From NCBI GenBank assembly GCA_046704885.1, contig JBJKRB010000207.1, positions 11,819 to 75,818 on the forward strand: a stretch of 64,000 nucleotides of DNA. Reading direction: 5' to 3'. Numbering within the stretch: position 1 is the stretch's first letter; every line of letters starts with the position of its first letter. Positions 3,001-9,000 of the stretch are shown piece by piece. A program made the position numbers. Source of the DNA: Thermoanaerobaculia bacterium. Lineage in GTDB: Bacteria; Acidobacteriota; Thermoanaerobaculia; Multivoradales; JBJKRB01.

Positions 3001-6000
3001 CGGTAGGGCCGCTCGGTGGTCATGGCGTCGAAGGTATCCGCCACCGCGATGATGCGCGGCTCGAGCGGAATCTCGCGATCTTGCAGACCATCAGGATAGC
3101 CGCCGCCGTCGAGGCGCTCGTGGTGGCTTCGAATCCCCGGCAGCACGTCTCTCAGGTCACGAATTCTCGACACGATCTCCTCGCCATCGATGGGATGACG
3201 CTGCATCACCGTCTGCTCGTCGTCATTGAGGGGAGAGGGTTTGCGGAGAATCTCGTCCGGCGTGGCGATCTTGCCCACATCGTGCAGGGTCGCTGCGAGC
3301 TGCAGATGCTCGAGGTAGGTGTCATCGAGGCCCATCTCCCTTCCCAGCAGAATCGAGTAGCAGACCACGCGCCGCACGTGGTTGCCGGTATAGGGGTCCC
3401 GTTTCTCGATCGACTCGGCAAGGGCAGTGACGGTTTCGACGAACTGCCGCTTCTGCGCCGCGTAGAGCCGCGCGTTCTCGATCGCCGTGGCCACGGGCCC
3501 GGCGAACAGACGCATGCGTCTCAAGTCCTCGTTGGTGAAGCGCGAGCCTGCGACTGGATTGAGCACCTGAAGAACGCCGATCACCCGCCCGCGCGCGACA
3601 AGGGGAACCGCGAGGATCGCTCGCGTCTCGAATTCCGTCGCCGAGTCGCCATGCCAGCGGGCGTCGCTGCGCACGTCATTGACGATCGCCGGCCGGCCAC
3701 TCAAGGCGACGTCGCCGACGATGCCCTCGCCGAGCGGCACCCTGAGGTCCTTGATCGAACCCGCCGCCTTGCCGCGAACGACGCGGAAGAAGAGCTCGCC
3801 GCTTTCGTCGTCGAGCTCCCAAATAGAGCTGGTTTCAGCGCGACAGAGATCCTCCGCCTGATGGAGCGCGAGCTCCAGGACTCGCGAGAGATCCAAGGTA
3901 CCCGCCAGAGCGACACCGATCTCGAGCAGGGTTTCGCTCTCGCGCAAGCGATGCTCGAGATCGGCCATCTCGTCGCGCCGCGCGTCGTCCGCGGCCTCCC
4001 TCCCGGCCGCGCCACCCCCTGTCTGTTCAATCGTCAAATCAATGAGCCCTATCGGCGAATGCGCGCGATTTTAGAAGCGGGTGCCAATCCAGAATGACGT
4101 CTCGTAACCCGCCTTTTGGAAACCGTAGCGAGCGGCGAATGCCGAGCTCACTTGCTTGGCGAAATCCCAGTTGAAGTCGAGCCCCAAGAGATTGGCGGTG
4201 AAACCCCAACCGTAGGAAGCGAGCGCGTCTTCCAAGCGGTAAGCGCTATCCGCCTGATCGGTCAAGCGGAAGCCCTGTCCCAGCGAGTGATACCAACTGC
4301 CCCCGAGATCGAGGAAGAATCGGCCGCGCACCTCTCTGAGGTGCAGGATCGGCGTCCTCAGCTGATCGATCAAGGGGAAGCGGAACTCGAGATTGGTAAA
4401 GAACATGCGGTCACCCGAGAACGCTGCGTAGGGGTAGCCGCGCAGGGTGTCGAGCCCGCCGAAATAATAGACGTCGGGATAGTTGCCGAAGCTCGCAGCG
4501 CCATAGATGCGGGCGGCGAAGTCGCTGCGCTCGGTCACCGGCAGATAGAAACGGGCATCGAGAGAAACACTCGAGGTGAGCGTTCCATGCTGGCTGCCGA
4601 GATCGGGAGCGTAGCGTGCATCGAGGCGGATGCGATGGCCACTCACCGGTCCGTAGTCCGCGTAGGTCGCGGTATCTCCCACCCACGCGGCAGTCACCAA
4701 CGGGAAGTTGTTCGAGAACCCTTGGAAGAGAATGTTGGTCTGCCCCGTCTGAGGATCGAAGGAGTACCTGGGAATCTCGATATTCCTCGAAATGTAGCCC
4801 ACGCCCAGCTCGACGCGATTGTAGAAGCTGAAGGGATAAGCCACCGAGGCGATGGCACCGGTCTGACGGAAGGTGCGCACGGCGCGAACGTACCGGTTCT
4901 GCGAGTAGTCGAATCCGATGAAGTAGTTGCGGTCGTCGAAGACGTAGAGCGAACGCTGCAAGCGCCGGCTCTGGTCGGAATAATAGAGATCGATGTTCTG
5001 ATAGCTGTACACCGAGCTCACCACCGCCAGCAGACGCCGGGTCCCCAAGTAGTTCGAGAACGACAGATAAGTCTGCCCGATGAAGGTCTGATCCGTGTTG
5101 ATTCCCACCGCCCCACCGCCGTCCTCGAGGAAGAGACGGTAGTTGTGCGGCGGCCCCAGGTTGGACTTGTCGAGGGTGACCTCGATCGGGGGCTCGAAGC
5201 GGGCGAGCTTCTCGGCGCTCTCCGGTTTCTCGGCGGCCGGGCTCGGCGGGATCCCGGGCAGGGGCTTGTCGCTGTCGGCCACGTAGAGGTTGAAGTCACC
5301 CTTCCAGTAGCCGGTGTACACCAGCTTCTCCGATCCGTCGGGCTGGCGCAGCACGGTCGGCATGTAGCAGCCGGTCACGACGTTGGTGTACTGCGAGATC
5401 TCGCCGGTGGTGAGGTCGAGGCCGTAGATGTTGTTGATCCCACCCTTGTCGGAGCTGAAGTAGATCCTCTTTCCATTGGTCGAGAAGACCGCGTCGGTGT
5501 CGTTCCACTCTCCCTGGGTGAGCTGGACTCTCTGGCTCGGATCGTCGAGGGCGATCCGGAAGAGCTTGGCGTAGCCGTTGATGACGATCGAAGCCACCAC
5601 CGACTTGCCGTCCGGCGAGAAGACCGGGGAGCCCTCGTAGAGGTCGTCGTCGGTCAGATTGCGGATGGCGCCGGTCGCTAGGTTGTAGAGGTAGATGTCG
5701 CTGTGGCCGCCCTTCCACGCCGAGAAGGCCAGGGTCCTGCCATCCGGCGAGAAAGCCGGGGAGAGCTGCTGCTCGAGATCGTCGGTGTCGACGATCTTGC
5801 GAATCCGGTGATTGAGCAGGTCGATCAGCATCAGACTTCGGCCGCGCTCACGCTTGACGAAGATCGCCACCGTGTTGCCGTCCGGCGAGATGTCCATGTC
5901 GCGGCCCATCTCGCGGCCGCTGACGAAGAACTGGCTCACCACGTACTGATACTTGGATGTATAGGCCGGCGTCAGGGCACGCAGGAACGTCCGCTTCTTG

Positions 6001-9000
6001 GCGTCAAACAAGAGCACCCGAAGCTCACCGTCATAGATCCCGAGGGCGGTGAGCAAGTCGCCGGACGGAGATGCCGCGGGTGAGGAGAGATCGGTCGTCT
6101 CGTCTTCGCGCAGGCGGAACGGCTTGCCGAAATCGCTAGGTTCCCCGGTCTCGACCAGCTTCGGCAGGTATTTCTTGCGCAACCAGCGCCGAAAGTCGCG
6201 ATCGAACTCCTGGGGCGAGATGTTGAAGGCGCGGCGCAGCGCCCGATCGACCGTTGGACCGAGAGTGTTCCGGTACTCGTAGAGAAAGTCCCGCAACCCC
6301 TCCTTGCCCCAGCGCTCGACCATGTACTGAAACGCCGCATGGCCGAAGCGATAGGCGAAGTAGCCGTGCACCTGATTCTTGGAGATCGAGGGCACCCGGT
6401 CGTTGACCACGGCATCGCGCAGAAACATCTTTTCCCAGGGCTGTTCGTCTTGCCCCATGTAGCTCGCCAAGCCTTCCATCAGCCACTGGGGGGCGCGCGA
6501 GGTCATCGCGCGACTGAGGCTGCCCTGAAAGAGCATGTGATATTCGAAGATGTGGGTCAGCTCGTGCCGGATGAGGGAAAGCAGCCGTGCCTCGGGCAGA
6601 TCGATCGGCATCACCATCCGGTCGCGCGCCGGACTCGCGAAAGCCCCGATCGACTCGGGGATGAAGTTGGTGATGACGTTGTTCTGCTCGAAGGCCGAGT
6701 GGGTCGCGAAGTAGATCAGCGGCGTCGGCTCTTTGATCTGGTAGGAAAACTCGCGCGAGAGCTGATCGTAGGCGCTCTCGGCGAGAGAGACGACCATCTT
6801 CAGCGAATTCTGTTCCTTGGCATAGAAGTAAACGTCGAAATGGGGAGAGTGGTAGATCTGCCAATGGAAGCGCCGGTATTGGATCTTGTTCTTCCCAAAG
6901 TTGGAGATGCCGGCCAAATAGGCCAGGCCCTGGCCGAACGCGGGAACCGACGCGGCGCACAAACCGCACGCCAGGAGCAGCGAAATAAGAGACTTCCGAG
7001 TGCGGCGCAAGGGACCCTCCTTACTCGGTAAACAGTGTGCGCGTGGTCTTCACTCGCTTCTCGGTGAAGATTCCGGCGATACGATCTTCCAAAGCACTCA
7101 AGTTTTCGAACATGCCCACCAGCGGGCTCGCGTTCTCCTTCGGGAAGCTCTTGAAGTCCTTGAAATTGTCTGAATAGAGAAGCTTCCCGGTATGGCCGTC
7201 GAGAACGGCAAGAACGATGTCGTACTCGAATCCCGTGTTCTCGACCAGCACCTGCCGATAGTAGGTGCGCTGGTCGAGTGGCGAGACGTACTGTTCCGTA
7301 CGATAGCCGCTGCGGTCCTGGATGTCGAAGTCGAGGCTGCCGGTCAACAGCAAGTCCGCTCCGGTCTTGGTTCCGAGGGCCTGCCAGAAGTCCTGCTTGT
7401 GGATCAGGACGTTGAGATCGTATGTGGGGTAAGTGACCGGACCGGCGTCGATGATCTTCAAGTGCGTCTCGCGGGTTAGAAGGCGCCTGATGTAGCGCTC
7501 GAACTCCTTTTCAACGTTCACCTTCTTGTTCGAGGCCTCCTCGCTCTCCTTGCGGACGACCAGAAACGGCGCGATGGCGATCGATTTGCGGTTCGCGAGA
7601 TTGAGGCGCGCCTTGAGCGGAAGGCTGAGCTGCACCTTCACCTCCCCCGCGAGGAGAGGCCCGGCGACTGTGAGCAGGAGCGCAAGGGCGGTCAGCAGCT
7701 CCCTGGCGAAACGGGCCCGCCGTGCTTCACTCATGGTCGTTGCCCCCTTGTCCGCCGGCCCTCGGCGCTCGACCGGGCCGCGAGTTGCCGGCGGTAGGCC
7801 GGCTCGCCCCCTTCGCGACGCCGGGCTCCTTGGATGCGCCCCCCGCCTGCGGCTTGAAGCTCTGGTAGAACTCGATGAAGCGCGAATAGTTGCGCTTCAG
7901 AGCCAAGTTACCGGGCTCCAGCTTCAGCGCTTCCTGATAATGCTTGAGCGCGGCGTCGAAGTGCCCTAGAGCTTCTTCGGCGACCGCCAGGTTGTTGAGC
8001 ACATTCACGTTCTTCGGAGCCATTTGCGCAGCCTTCTCGAAGCGAAAGAGCGCTTCGCTCCACAGCCCCTTCTCGGCCATGGAAACACCGAAATTCAGCT
8101 GCGCGCTTGGATTGCCGGGAGCGCCATAACCGCTACACGCGATCCACCCGCCGGCCGGAATGAGGGCCAGCGCCAAGGTGAGCCATCGTGCGACCCTTGC
8201 TTTCATAGGAACCTCCAACAGTATATACGAGACCTAGAAAGACTTGTCTTCATCCTGAGCGATTGACCTCGCCGTCTCCGTCTCTTCTGTCGGAGACAAG
8301 GAGAGAAGACCATGGATACGGCCGACCATCGATCCGCCCTTATCGCCCTCAACCTCTGTCCTGATCTGTCGCGTGCAGCGATCTGTGCACTCGGTGGTTG
8401 CGTCGAGCATTGGATGCAGTCCCCCTCGGGCGCGGCATTGCGTTCTCTCGCCCGGCGTCTCGCCATCCCCAGCGAGCACCTTGCGGTCGCCAAGACGCTG
8501 GTGCGCCACGCCCACGATACCGCCATTCGCGAGCTGCAGCGCGCCCAGGCCGCTAAGGTCGAAATCATCACTCGCTCGGATCCTTCCTATCCCGCCGAGC
8601 TGCTTCAGCTGGATCTGCCGCCCCCCGTCCTCTATCTGCGCGGTCAGCTCGTCCAGCGGCCGCGCCTGGCCGTGGTTGGATCACGCGCCGCTACCCGCTA
8701 TGGAATCGAGGCCGCCGGGTCGCTCGCCAGCGAGCTCGCAGTCGCCGGGATCACGATCGTCTCGGGCATGGCCCGTGGAATCGACGCCGCGGCCCACCAG
8801 GGCGCTCTTTCCGCCGTGGCTGGCCGCACGGTTGCGGTCCTCGGTTGCGGCGTGGACGTCCCCTACCCACGCGGACACCGGGCCTTGGCCGCGCGAATCG
8901 CTGATCGAGGCGCCCTGGTGAGCGAGTTCGGATTCGGTGTCGAGCCCCGGCCCTGGCACTTCCCGGTTCGCAACCGTCTAATAGCGGCGCTCTCCGCCGG

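What the first reader, a model, noticed from the sequence alone, without database searches (positions are those of the whole stretch)
4071..8218. 979-aa outer-membrane protein combining an HExxH metallopeptidase-like domain, TolB-type beta-propeller and Omp85-type barrel, with co-transcribed TPR and secreted partners
This domain combination (Peptidase_MA-like HELTHIFEY…EGLASY, then PD40 repeats, then a Bac_surface_Ag-like C-terminal barrel ending in F) is unusual. Omp85 proteins normally carry POTRA domains, not a peptidase and propeller. Two small co-oriented genes, a TPR lipoprotein and a secreted protein, overlap it upstream, suggesting a dedicated envelope machine. This could be an outer-membrane protease, a surface-protein processing or secretion platform, or a BamA/TamA-like assembly factor with a proteolytic quality-control domain.
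Basis: partly seen in the sequence, partly recalled or inferred. Interest (0 to 1): 0.55.

Follow-up and report, generated by a model that had tools for sequence, protein, structure and literature searches.

The report
Peptidase-propeller Omp85 outer-membrane protein operon
The gene is real and encodes an outer-membrane barrel protein carrying a zinc-peptidase-like domain and a TolB-like propeller, but this design is an already catalogued, still uncharacterised Omp85 subfamily rather than a new kind of protein.

Summary
Window 7010..4071 (-) encodes a 979-aa protein with these parts:
- a signal peptide;
- an MA-clan zincin domain (HELTH 149-153, Glu179);
- a six-bladed TolB-type propeller;
- a 45-aa POTRA-less linker;
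- a 16-strand Omp85 barrel with the L6 RGY and beta13 FxDxG motifs and a terminal Phe.

Two small genes, a TPR lipoprotein and a secreted 237-aa protein, are packed directly upstream on the same strand.

The architecture is not new. It is the 'WD40-like Omp85' subfamily of Heinz & Lithgow (2014), whose supplement already records aminopeptidase-like N-domains. Papers from 2024 still call it uncharacterised. The family is large (more than 5,000 proteins) and spans many phyla.

What this analysis adds:
- The zincin residues stay invariant down to 25% identity.
- The TPR + partner + main operon is conserved in Acidobacteriota, including at about 31% identity in a different genomic setting. It is absent in the other lineages sampled.
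- The partner has a PelC/CsgG/FlgT/LptE-like fold.
- Other clades pair the gene with SPOR-domain, TamB or GWxTD neighbours.

Best reading (inferred): an outer-membrane-anchored periplasmic zinc peptidase involved in envelope maintenance.

Novelty: new member of a known kind. Interest: moderate.

The parts
7727..8206 (-). TPR lipoprotein gene. 159 aa from ATG 8206; the mechanical ORF runs from TTG 8218. Signal peptide with a lipobox-like WIAC|SG, about 2-3 TPR repeats at residues ~38-115 (numbering of the 163-aa TTG-8218 ORF), and a Gly/Pro/Ala-rich tail.
   Evidence: TPR_2 E 3.9e-12, plus weak PilW/Tgl/NlpI-type hits. GGAGG lies before ATG 8206. Homologues are present in 73 of 73 related loci whose contig reaches that far, most with L-A-A-C/L-A-G-C lipoboxes. 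Also present in L085 (43% id) and L089 (48% id) with different flanks.
7021..7734 (-). Gene for a secreted 237-aa partner protein with no Pfam family. SPase I signal (..PLLAG|EVKV) followed by an alpha/beta domain.
   Evidence: Its start overlaps the TPR stop by 8 nt. A homologue lies immediately upstream of the large gene in 83/83 Thermoanaerobaculia/Holophagales loci and in L089 (28% id, E 3e-24). 1401 homologues, all named 'hypothetical' where a name is given. AF2 model pLDDT 80.9. Foldseek hits to FlgT, HpaA, GNA1162, PelC, CsgG, CT253 and LptE, E 1e-6 to 1e-3.
4071..7010 (-). Main gene: 979-aa WD40-like Omp85 protein (stop codon 4071-4073).
   Evidence: TTG start 6 nt after GGAGGG.
6933..7010 (-). 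Signal peptide, residues 1-26 (..VPAFG|QG). The A-x-A|Q-type site is conserved in homologues. The Cys residues in the hydrophobic region are not conserved, so this is not a lipoprotein.
   Evidence: Read directly from the sequence and alignment A1.
6138..6899 (-). MA-clan zincin (gluzincin-type) domain, residues ~38-291.
   Evidence: Peptidase_MA_2 in 12/13 and Peptidase_M9 in 11/13 family N-domains, plus BSP, DUF6782 and DUF1570. Flagellinolysin HExxH model E 1.5e-8. The model shows a beta-sheet plus an active-site helix and a 'glutamate helix'.
6552..6566 (-). HELTH zinc-binding/catalytic motif (His149, Glu150, His153).
   Evidence: Invariant in 25 close and 35 distant (25-46% id) full-length homologues. 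An HExxH..E motif is present in all 89 diverse loci. Coordinates checked.
6474..6476 (-). Glu179 in WLMEGLASY, the candidate third zinc ligand. It lies 26 residues after His153, on the next long helix.
   Evidence: Invariant together with Pro174, Trp176 and Gly180. Coordinates checked.
6351..6353 (-). Tyr220, an invariant residue and candidate transition-state stabiliser (inference only).
   Evidence: Invariant in A4. The proposed role rests on analogy with the M1/thermolysin-type Tyr (own knowledge) and was not tested.
5268..6125 (-). Six-bladed TolB/PD40-type beta-propeller, residues ~296-581.
   Evidence: TIGR02800 E 3.6e-33 over model positions 160-355. PDB profile hits to TolB at E 1e-25 to 1e-28. 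Foldseek matches TolB. Six four-strand blades in the model.
5133..5267 (-). Pro-rich linker, residues 582-626, with a conserved FEPxIxVxxDxxN segment. No POTRA domain.
   Evidence: No PF07244 hit at E <= 1. The model has almost no regular structure here. The motif is conserved in A1.
4074..5132 (-). 16-strand Omp85-type beta-barrel, residues 627-979, ending in Phe979.
   Evidence: 16 strands in the model. BamA barrels are the top PDB matches, E ~1e-10, TM ~0.6 normalised to the target barrel. TIGR03303 E 1.2e-10.
4434..4445 (-). LRGY (856-859), the loop-6 (V/I)RG(Y/F) motif of the Omp85/TpsB superfamily.
   Evidence: It lies in the long loop between strands 11 and 12 of the model. Arg857 is invariant in distant homologues. 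Coordinates checked.
4302..4316 (-). FLDLG (899-903), the strand-13 (F/G)xDxG motif that locks loop 6.
   Evidence: It lies in model strand 13. Phe and Asp are nearly invariant. Coordinates checked.

Best explanation
The locus encodes a member of the 'WD40-like Omp85' subfamily together with two lineage-specific partners.

Shown:
- The large protein is exported by Sec.
- It has a complete, strongly conserved gluzincin site (His149, Glu150, His153, Glu179).
- It has a six-bladed TolB-type propeller and no POTRA domain.
- It has a true Omp85 barrel with the loop-6/strand-13 lock and a C-terminal Phe.
- In Acidobacteriota it sits in one tightly packed operon with a TPR lipoprotein and a secreted PelC/CsgG/FlgT/LptE-fold protein.

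Inferred:
- BAM inserts the barrel, which acts mainly as a membrane anchor. The peptidase and propeller stay in the periplasm, as was shown experimentally for the enzyme domain of the Omp85 protein PlpD.
- The propeller binds or gates substrates, as in TolB or in propeller-gated peptidases such as tricorn and DPP-IV.
- The zincin cuts unfolded or tethered envelope polypeptides at the inner face of the outer membrane. This would be an envelope maintenance or quality-control role.
- The TPR lipoprotein acts as an adaptor, as NlpI does for Prc and as the TPR domain does in BepA.
- The small alpha/beta protein docks as a ring or plug under the barrel.
For: - Architecture.
- Catalytic residues and Omp85 motifs invariant at 25-46% identity.
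- Operon packing with no terminator-like site.
- Operon conservation: 83/83 loci for the partner and 73/73 for the TPR gene within the class. It is also kept in L089, where the main protein is only 31% identical and the flanks differ. In Aminicenantes L085 the TPR gene is kept, along with a non-homologous small lipoprotein in the partner's position.
- Partner fold.
- Lipobox and SPase I sites.
- Periplasmic location of an Omp85-fused enzyme domain: PMC11116518.
- Neighbours in other clades are envelope-related: SPOR lipoproteins in 22 loci and TamB in 12 loci; also M23, SLT, BacA, PAP2, MurJ and Kds genes.
Against: - There is no experimental data for any family member.
- Pfam zincin scores are at or below the gathering thresholds. 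A sequence profile of the N-domain found no solved zincin.
- I could not inspect model coordinates or PAE, so the geometry between active site, propeller and barrel is unknown.
- Topology is inferred by analogy only.
- The conserved lid-lock motifs suggest the barrel may do more than anchor.
- The partners are absent in the other lineages sampled (for example Poribacteria L084 and KSB1 L092), so they cannot be essential to the core activity.
- The neighbour associations are lineage-specific and could reflect plain synteny.
Confidence: 0.5

Rival explanations
1. Assembly or translocation factor. The Omp85 barrel is the working part and inserts or translocates a dedicated set of outer-membrane or surface proteins, as BamA, TamA or TpsB do. 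The propeller and zincin-like domain replace POTRA as a substrate-docking or chaperone module, possibly with a BepA-like dual chaperone/protease role. This was the third idea the first reader offered.
For: - The loop-6 RGY and strand-13 FxDxG motifs, functionally important in BamA and FhaC, are retained and Arg857 is invariant.
- A TamB/AsmA-like gene lies two genes upstream in 12 diverse loci whose main proteins have a median identity of 41%.
- Heinz & Lithgow propose this as the most conservative hypothesis and compare the protein to a BamA-BamB fusion.
- The TPR lipoprotein partner recalls BamD (own knowledge).
Against: - There is no POTRA domain. In TamA, POTRA is the TamB-binding element (own knowledge).
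- RNase R sits between tamB and the gene in those loci.
- No cargo-like gene is consistently adjacent.
- Strict conservation of the full catalytic set argues for catalysis, not only binding.
Confidence: 0.2
2. Tol-Pal-like envelope tether or cell-division factor. The TolB-type propeller binds a Pal- or OmpA-like peptidoglycan-associated protein, or peptidoglycan itself. The zincin trims peptidoglycan-linked proteins or stem peptides during growth and septation.
For: - The propeller is closest to TolB.
- In 22 loci the next gene encodes a SPOR-domain lipoprotein, often followed by a second SPOR protein. SPOR domains bind septal peptidoglycan.
- Neighbours in other loci include M23 peptidases, SLT, BacA, PAP2, MurJ and FtsEX.
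Against: - The TolB model score (115 bits) is far below its cutoff (343), and only the propeller part matches.
- No tol or pal genes are adjacent in any locus examined.
- Zincin hits are to protein and peptide peptidase families (M9, MA_2), not to known peptidoglycan peptidases.
- The SPOR association is confined to one clade.
Confidence: 0.15
3. Self-exported surface peptidase (type V-like). The barrel translocates the N-terminal zincin and propeller to the cell surface, where they degrade extracellular proteins or peptides for nutrition or surface-protein processing.
For: - An N-terminal passenger followed by a C-terminal 16-strand Omp85 barrel is formally the type Vd layout.
- Heinz & Lithgow raise this possibility, but only for the enzyme-fused Omp85 subfamilies they call 'Metallo' and patatin-like, not for the WD40-like one.
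- Soil and sediment Acidobacteriota are commonly proteolytic (own knowledge).
Against: - The prototype PlpD was shown to keep its enzyme domain in the periplasm.
- A folded six-bladed propeller is an unlikely passenger for an Omp85 pore with a locked loop 6 (inference).
- No peptide transporter or TonB-dependent receptor genes were seen next to the gene in the loci examined.
- The partners are periplasmic or lipoprotein types.
Confidence: 0.1
4. Pseudo-peptidase scaffold. The HExxH domain no longer catalyses anything and serves only as a structural or binding module.
For: Pfam scores are borderline. No solved zincin was found by sequence profile.
Against: His149, Glu150, His153 and Glu179 are invariant across 35 homologues at 25-46% identity, where mean column identity is only 33%. 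The motif is present in all 89 diverse loci.
Confidence: 0.05

Closest known systems
'WD40-like Omp85' subfamily (Heinz & Lithgow 2014, Front Microbiol 5:370, PMC4104836)
   Same: An Omp85 barrel preceded by PD40/WD40-like repeats closest to TolB, with no POTRA. Their Table S3 also lists aminopeptidase- or collagenase-like Phyre2 hits (1Z5H, 4KXD, 4FGM, 4AR1, 3QNF) for the N-terminus. Members come from Caldithrix, Rhodothermus, Myxococcus, Sorangium, Anaeromyxobacter and others. The window protein aligns end to end with a Calditrichota member.
   Different: Nothing in the core architecture differs. This is an Acidobacteriota (Thermoanaerobaculia) member. The conserved TPR + PelC-fold-partner operon, and the SPOR, TamB and GWxTD neighbourhoods in other clades, do not appear in the sections of that paper I read or in the supplement passages my term searches returned.
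PlpD (patatin-like Omp85, Pseudomonas aeruginosa; PMC11116518)
   Same: An enzyme domain fused N-terminally to a 16-strand Omp85 barrel. The enzyme domain was shown to stay in the periplasm, so the Omp85 scaffold has been reused for a non-assembly function.
   Different: PlpD has a patatin lipase and one POTRA domain and forms homodimers. Here there is a zincin plus a propeller and no POTRA. The oligomeric state is unknown.
BepA (periplasmic M48 zinc metallopeptidase with a TPR domain, E. coli; own knowledge)
   Same: An HExxH protease combined with a TPR module acting at the BAM/outer-membrane interface, as a chaperone and quality-control protease for LptD and BamA. It is the best functional analogue for the proposed role.
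   Different: A different peptidase family: no M48 hit here. BepA is soluble and carries its own TPR domain. Here the peptidase is fused to the barrel and the TPR protein is a separate lipoprotein.
TolB of the Tol-Pal system
   Same: A six-bladed PD40 propeller. TolB gives the best HMM and structural matches for residues ~296-581.
   Different: The score is far below the TolB cutoff. There is no TolB N-terminal domain in this chain, no tol-pal operon nearby, and the protein is membrane-embedded rather than soluble.
PelB/PelC and CsgG-type outer-membrane export assemblies; LptD/LptE
   Same: The same set of parts: a TPR module, a small alpha/beta OM-associated protein of the PelC/CsgG/LptE fold, and an outer-membrane beta-barrel.
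   Different: Only fold-level similarity for the partner (TM 0.35-0.6, 8-19% identity). The window's partner has no lipobox. The barrel is of the Omp85 type, not a Pel porin or LptD. No polysaccharide or curli genes are adjacent.
Propeller-gated peptidases (tricorn, DPP-IV/prolyl oligopeptidase family) and NlpI-Prc (own knowledge)
   Same: A beta-propeller that filters access to a peptidase. A TPR lipoprotein that delivers substrates to a periplasmic protease.
   Different: Those are serine peptidases. The match to the Tricorn_N/Tricorn_2nd/DPPIV_N models covers only the propeller blades.

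Membership tests
Omp85/TpsB superfamily | C-terminal 16-stranded transmembrane beta-barrel homologous to BamA/TamA/FhaC | tested here: met
   16 strands in the AF2 model, residues 627-975. BamA barrels are the top Foldseek PDB hits, E ~1e-10. TIGR03303 E 1.2e-10 and Omp85_fam E 3.4e-5. PF01103 is precomputed on many homologues.
Omp85/TpsB superfamily | Loop-6 (V/I)RG(Y/F) motif and strand-13 (F/G)xDxG 'lid-lock' motif | tested here: met
   LRGY 856-859 lies in the loop between strands 11 and 12. 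FLDLG 899-903 lies in strand 13. Arg857 is invariant and Phe899/Asp901 nearly invariant at 25-46% identity.
Omp85/TpsB superfamily (canonical BamA/TamA/TpsB types) | [quoted passage not shown] | tested here: not met
   No POTRA (PF07244) hit at E <= 1. A 45-residue Pro-rich linker without the POTRA secondary-structure pattern precedes strand 1. So this is not BamA, TamA, TpsB or the PlpD type.
WD40-like Omp85 subfamily (Heinz & Lithgow 2014) | Omp85 barrel preceded by PD40/WD40-like repeats whose closest structure is TolB, without POTRA | tested here: met
   PD40 E 2.8e-15 and TolB propeller E 3.6e-33. TolB is the best solved relative.
WD40-like Omp85 subfamily (Heinz & Lithgow 2014) | Aminopeptidase- or collagenase-like region N-terminal to the propeller (their Table S3) | tested here: met
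   Peptidase_MA_2, Peptidase_M9 and flagellinolysin HExxH models match residues 116-277.
WD40-like Omp85 subfamily (Heinz & Lithgow 2014) | Sequence homology to the listed members (e.g. H1XQ58 Caldithrix, D0MEQ5 Rhodothermus, J1SNQ0 Myxococcus) | tested here: inconclusive
   Those accessions could not be fetched. The window protein aligns end to end (25% id, E 1e-91) with a Calditrichota protein of the same architecture. It is also linked by profile searches to KSB1, Bacteroidota, Eisenbacteria and Poribacteria members.
MA-clan gluzincin metallopeptidases | HExxH on a helix plus a Glu third ligand on a following helix | tested here: met
   HELTH 149-153 lies in model helix ~140-160. Glu179 lies in helix ~175-186, 26 residues after His153. 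All four residues are invariant.
MA-clan gluzincin metallopeptidases | Score above a curated family threshold | tested here: inconclusive
   Peptidase_MA_2 scores 29.2-29.9 bits against a cutoff of 32.4. Peptidase_M9 scores 27.4 against 26 for the isolated N-domain, but covers only model positions 161-289. A PDB sequence-profile search of the N-domain found no zincin.
MA-clan gluzincin metallopeptidases | Zinc-dependent peptide-bond hydrolysis | not testable with these tools
   This needs recombinant protein and an E150A control.
TolB (Tol-Pal system protein) | Equivalog-level match including the N-terminal alpha/beta domain; soluble periplasmic protein encoded in a tol-pal operon | tested here: not met
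   TIGR02800 scores 115 bits against a cutoff of 343, and only model positions 160-355 match. The neighbours are dprA/topA and GAF-HD, not tol or pal.
BepA / M48 peptidases | M48 peptidase domain fused to a TPR domain | tested here: not met
   M48 does not appear among the Pfam/NCBIfam matches at E <= 1 for the full protein, nor among the top families matched by the N-domains at E <= 0.01. The TPR module is a separate gene. BepA is a functional analogue only.
PelC/CsgG/FlgT-fold OM-associated proteins (for the 237-aa partner) | Shared alpha/beta fold | tested here: met
   Foldseek hits: FlgT 8z5n/3w1e, HpaA, GNA1162, PelC, CsgG, CT253 and LptE, E 1e-6 to 1e-3, TM 0.35-0.6. A weak FlgT_M Pfam hit at E 0.002.
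PelC/CsgG/FlgT-fold OM-associated proteins (for the 237-aa partner) | Lipoprotein anchor and ring oligomerisation | tested here: not met
   No Cys in the signal region. Homologues have AxA|(S/T)VEV SPase I sites. Oligomerisation cannot be tested here.

The most novel reading that the evidence does not exclude
The protein, with its TPR lipoprotein and its PelC/LptE-fold partner, could be a self-contained outer-membrane proteolytic machine in which barrel and peptidase cooperate. One version: stalled or misfolded beta-barrel or surface proteins are captured at the Omp85 lateral seam or lumen and fed to the propeller-gated zincin. Another version: substrates are processed as they pass the barrel. 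Either would be a mode of Omp85 action distinct from insertion (BamA/TamA), translocation (TpsB) and simple anchoring (PlpD).
Probability: 0.15. Interest if true: 0.75.

Novelty: new member of a known kind. Interest (0 to 1): 0.4.

Why it matters
Omp85 proteins are central to outer-membrane biogenesis. The POTRA-less, enzyme-fused subfamilies are repeatedly flagged as uncharacterised and worth studying (PMC11116518, PMC11358297).

This locus does not reveal a new kind of protein. It does sharpen the problem in three ways:
- The peptidase site is under strict conservation across phyla, which argues for real catalysis.
- It names two candidate partner proteins from a conserved operon in Acidobacteriota.
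- It points to clade-specific links with SPOR-domain, TamB and GWxTD genes that could guide experiments.

If the periplasmic quality-control reading is right, the family would be a widespread envelope protease built into the outer membrane, found largely in poorly studied phyla.

Tried and rejected
- A PDB sequence-profile search with the N-domain alone (A3) returned only designed repeat proteins through a short low-complexity match. These are spurious.
- I considered that the conserved FEQNN (106-111) is the counterpart of the M1 'GAMEN' exopeptidase motif. I rejected this because the Glu is Gln in distant members (consensus).
- The GAF-HD gene 33 nt downstream is not part of the module. It is present in only 16/83 related loci.
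- dprA/topA synteny is conserved in the class (67/83). Within-class conservation alone therefore does not prove an operon. I relied instead on L089 and L085, which have different flanks.
- The 193-aa lipoprotein in the partner's position in Aminicenantes shows no significant similarity to the partner HMM (0.9 bits). Homology is not claimed.
- My simple ORF caller mis-picked some long antisense ORFs in high-GC loci. I recounted the motifs from the matching frames instead. Neighbour positions are approximate. The Glu of the metagenome loci is partly guaranteed by the search pattern (PxWxxEGxAE). The HExxH is not.
- Literature searches for a functional study of this subfamily found none.

Full report
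**Observation.**
The minus strand carries three tightly packed ORFs:
- 8218/8206..7727, a TPR protein;
- 7734..7021, a 237-aa protein;
- 7010..4071, a 979-aa protein.

The TPR gene most likely starts at ATG 8206, which follows a GGAGG site. Its stop overlaps the next start by 8 nt (ATGAGTGA). The 237-aa gene ends in TAA, followed directly by GGAGGG and the TTG start of the large gene. No terminator-like site lies between 3800 and 8600. Co-transcription is therefore very likely.

The flanking genes are divergent dprA/topA on one side and a GAF-HD gene plus two metallo-beta-lactamase-fold genes on the other.

Numbering note: alignments A1/A4 and the structure model were made from residues 2-979, so their numbers are true residue numbers minus 1. 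I use true numbers below.

**Anatomy of the 979-aa protein.**
- Residues 1-26 are a signal peptide with a conserved A-x-A|Q-type site.
- Residues ~38-291 match MA-clan zincin models. Peptidase_MA_2 scores 29 bits, just under its 32.4 threshold. The C-terminal half of Peptidase_M9 and the flagellinolysin HExxH model also match. Twelve of 13 family N-domains hit Peptidase_MA_2 and 11 of 13 hit M9.
- HELTH (149-153) sits on a long helix. Glu179, in WLMEGLASY, sits on the next long helix 26 residues later. This is the gluzincin arrangement.
- Residues ~296-581 form six four-stranded blades. Their best matches are TolB (TIGR02800 E 3.6e-33; PDB TolB chains E 1e-25 to 1e-28; Foldseek TolB).
- A 45-residue Pro-rich linker follows. 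No POTRA domain is detected by HMM or in the model.
- Residues 627-979 form 16 strands. BamA barrels are the top PDB matches (E ~1e-10, TM ~0.6 relative to the barrel).
- The two superfamily motifs are in the expected places: LRGY (856-859) in loop 6 and FLDLG (899-903) in strand 13. The chain ends in Phe.

**Conservation.**
- Close homologues (50-59% identity, ~970 aa) are abundant in Thermoanaerobaculia and Holophagales MAGs.
- A search of 1.84 billion cluster representatives found 995 clusters at E <= 1e-30, with full-length relatives down to ~25% identity.
- In 35 such sequences (mean column identity 33%) the invariant residues include His149, Glu150, His153, Pro174, Trp176, Glu179, Gly180, Tyr220 and Arg857.
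- All 89 diverse loci examined encode HExxH followed by the Glu motif. The Glu is partly guaranteed by the search pattern. The HExxH is not.
- Named members occur in Aminicenantes, Poribacteria, WOR-3, Bacteroidota, KSB1, Calditrichota, Eisenbacteria and Methylomirabilota.
- The window protein aligns end to end with a Calditrichota protein (25% identity, E 1e-91).

**What is already known.**
Heinz & Lithgow (2014, PMC4104836) divided the Omp85/TpsB superfamily into ten subfamilies. One is 'WD40-like Omp85'. It has an Omp85 barrel and N-terminal PD40 repeats closest to TolB. They compared it to a BamA-BamB fusion.

Their Table S3 has a column 'best aminopeptidase hit' for this subfamily. It lists 1Z5H, 4KXD, 4FGM, 4AR1 and 3QNF for members from Caldithrix, Rhodothermus, Sideroxydans, Myxococcus, Sorangium, Anaeromyxobacter and others.

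A 2024 paper describes the subfamily as having 'divergent WD40 and peptidase domains' (PMC11358297). Another says these subfamilies 'have not been well characterized' (PMC11116518). I found no functional study.

The domain combination is therefore a known, uncharacterised kind. The window holds a new member of it.

**The partners.**
Within the class:
- A homologue of the 237-aa protein lies directly upstream in 83/83 loci.
- The TPR gene is present in all 73 loci whose contig reaches that far.
- dprA is also syntenic in 67/83 of these loci, so this conservation alone is weak evidence for an operon.

Beyond the class:
- In L089 the main protein is only 31% identical and the flanks are unrelated. 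The TPR gene (48% identity over 61 aa) and the partner (28% identity, E 3e-24) are still present in the same order.
- In Aminicenantes (L085) the TPR gene is kept (43% identity). A 193-aa lipoprotein occupies the partner's position but has no detectable similarity to it. This locus sits between KDO-synthesis genes and dnaA.
- Poribacteria, KSB1, Eisenbacteria and four unassigned loci (L086, L087, L088, L090) lack both partners. The partner HMM hits only L089 among the 89 diverse loci.

Properties of the partners:
- TPR homologues mostly carry lipoboxes.
- Partner homologues have SPase I sites followed by a conserved (S/T)VEVKL N-terminus.
- The partner's model (pLDDT 81) resembles FlgT, HpaA, GNA1162, PelC, CsgG, CT253 and LptE. 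These are small outer-membrane-associated alpha/beta proteins that form rings or plug barrels.

**Other neighbourhoods.**
I clustered the neighbours across 89 diverse loci:
- 22 loci (main proteins median 53% identical) have a SPOR-domain lipoprotein immediately downstream. It is often followed by a second SPOR protein.
- 12 loci (median 41% identical) have a TamB/AsmA-type gene two genes upstream, with RNase R in between.
- 6 loci have a GWxTD-domain gene downstream.

Single loci show M23 peptidases, SLT, BacA, PAP2, MurJ or FtsEX nearby. The recurring theme is the cell envelope. No peptide-uptake or TonB-receptor genes were seen next to the gene. These links are clade-specific and could still be plain synteny.

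**Mechanism.**
Shown:
- the architecture;
- the complete and invariant gluzincin site;
- a genuine Omp85 barrel without POTRA;
- a conserved three-gene operon in Acidobacteriota.

Inferred:
- The N-terminal domains are periplasmic. This follows from the topology of Omp85 barrels and from the experimental result that PlpD's enzyme domain stays in the periplasm.
- The propeller binds or filters substrates.
- The zincin cleaves unfolded or tethered envelope polypeptides beneath the outer membrane.
- The TPR lipoprotein is an adaptor, by analogy with NlpI-Prc and BepA (own knowledge).
- The alpha/beta partner docks under the barrel.

I put about 0.5 on this overall reading. The rivals are:
- a BamA/TamA-like assembly factor whose barrel is the active part (0.2);
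- a Tol-Pal-like peptidoglycan-linked or division role (0.15);
- a self-exported surface peptidase (0.1);
- an inactive scaffold (0.05).

**Verdict.**
Novelty is 'new member of a known kind'. Interest is moderate (0.4). The instance itself is ordinary for its subfamily, but the subfamily's function is an acknowledged open question. The operon partners and conserved catalytic site give concrete handles for testing it.

Noticed in passing
window 42412-54817: A cluster of multihaem c-type cytochrome genes: 42412-43926 (NapC/NirT-like), 45471-47435 (-) and 53084-54817. The last has an MtrC/MtrF-like domain hit. This could be an extracellular electron-transfer locus in a Thermoanaerobaculia genome.
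   Followed up: no
window 2829-4037 (-), 2044-2940 (-), 1017-1961 (-): A GAF + HD_5 (HD-GYP-like) gene starts 33 nt after the large gene's stop and is followed by two metallo-beta-lactamase-fold genes (cAMP-PDE class II / Apyc1-like hits). The GAF-HD gene accompanies the module in only 16/83 related loci. The MBL and pur genes were also seen downstream in the two related loci whose gene tables I read, L001 and L003.
   Followed up: partly
window 8312-11840 (+): dprA and topA lie divergently upstream. dprA is in this position in 67/83 related loci. General synteny is therefore strong in the class and must be discounted when operons are inferred.
   Followed up: yes
window 38442-40247 (-) and 49215-51107 (+): Two long ORFs (601 and 630 aa) have no Pfam hit at E <= 1e-5. 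I did not check whether they are real genes.
   Followed up: no
L091:1-958 and L091:5001-8156: An Eisenbacteria contig carries two paralogues of the family about 4 kb apart. A PAP2 gene overlaps the end of the second.
   Followed up: no
L085:1-5011 and 8845-11359: In Aminicenantes the three-gene module sits directly after KDO/LPS-precursor genes (KdsB-, KdsA-, KdsD- and KdsC-like, plus a hexapeptide transferase) and before dnaA/dnaN.
   Followed up: no
L119:1089-7790 (and 11 similar loci): The order tamB-like (1514 aa, TamB/AsmA domains), RNase R, WD40-like Omp85 gene is conserved in 12 metagenome loci whose main proteins share a median 41% identity. It is unexplained why RNase R sits between them.
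   Followed up: partly
L089:8179-11108: In the distant operon-type locus the main gene is followed by a 765-aa multi-pass membrane protein and a 211-aa membrane protein, neither with a Pfam hit. They are absent from the window.
   Followed up: no
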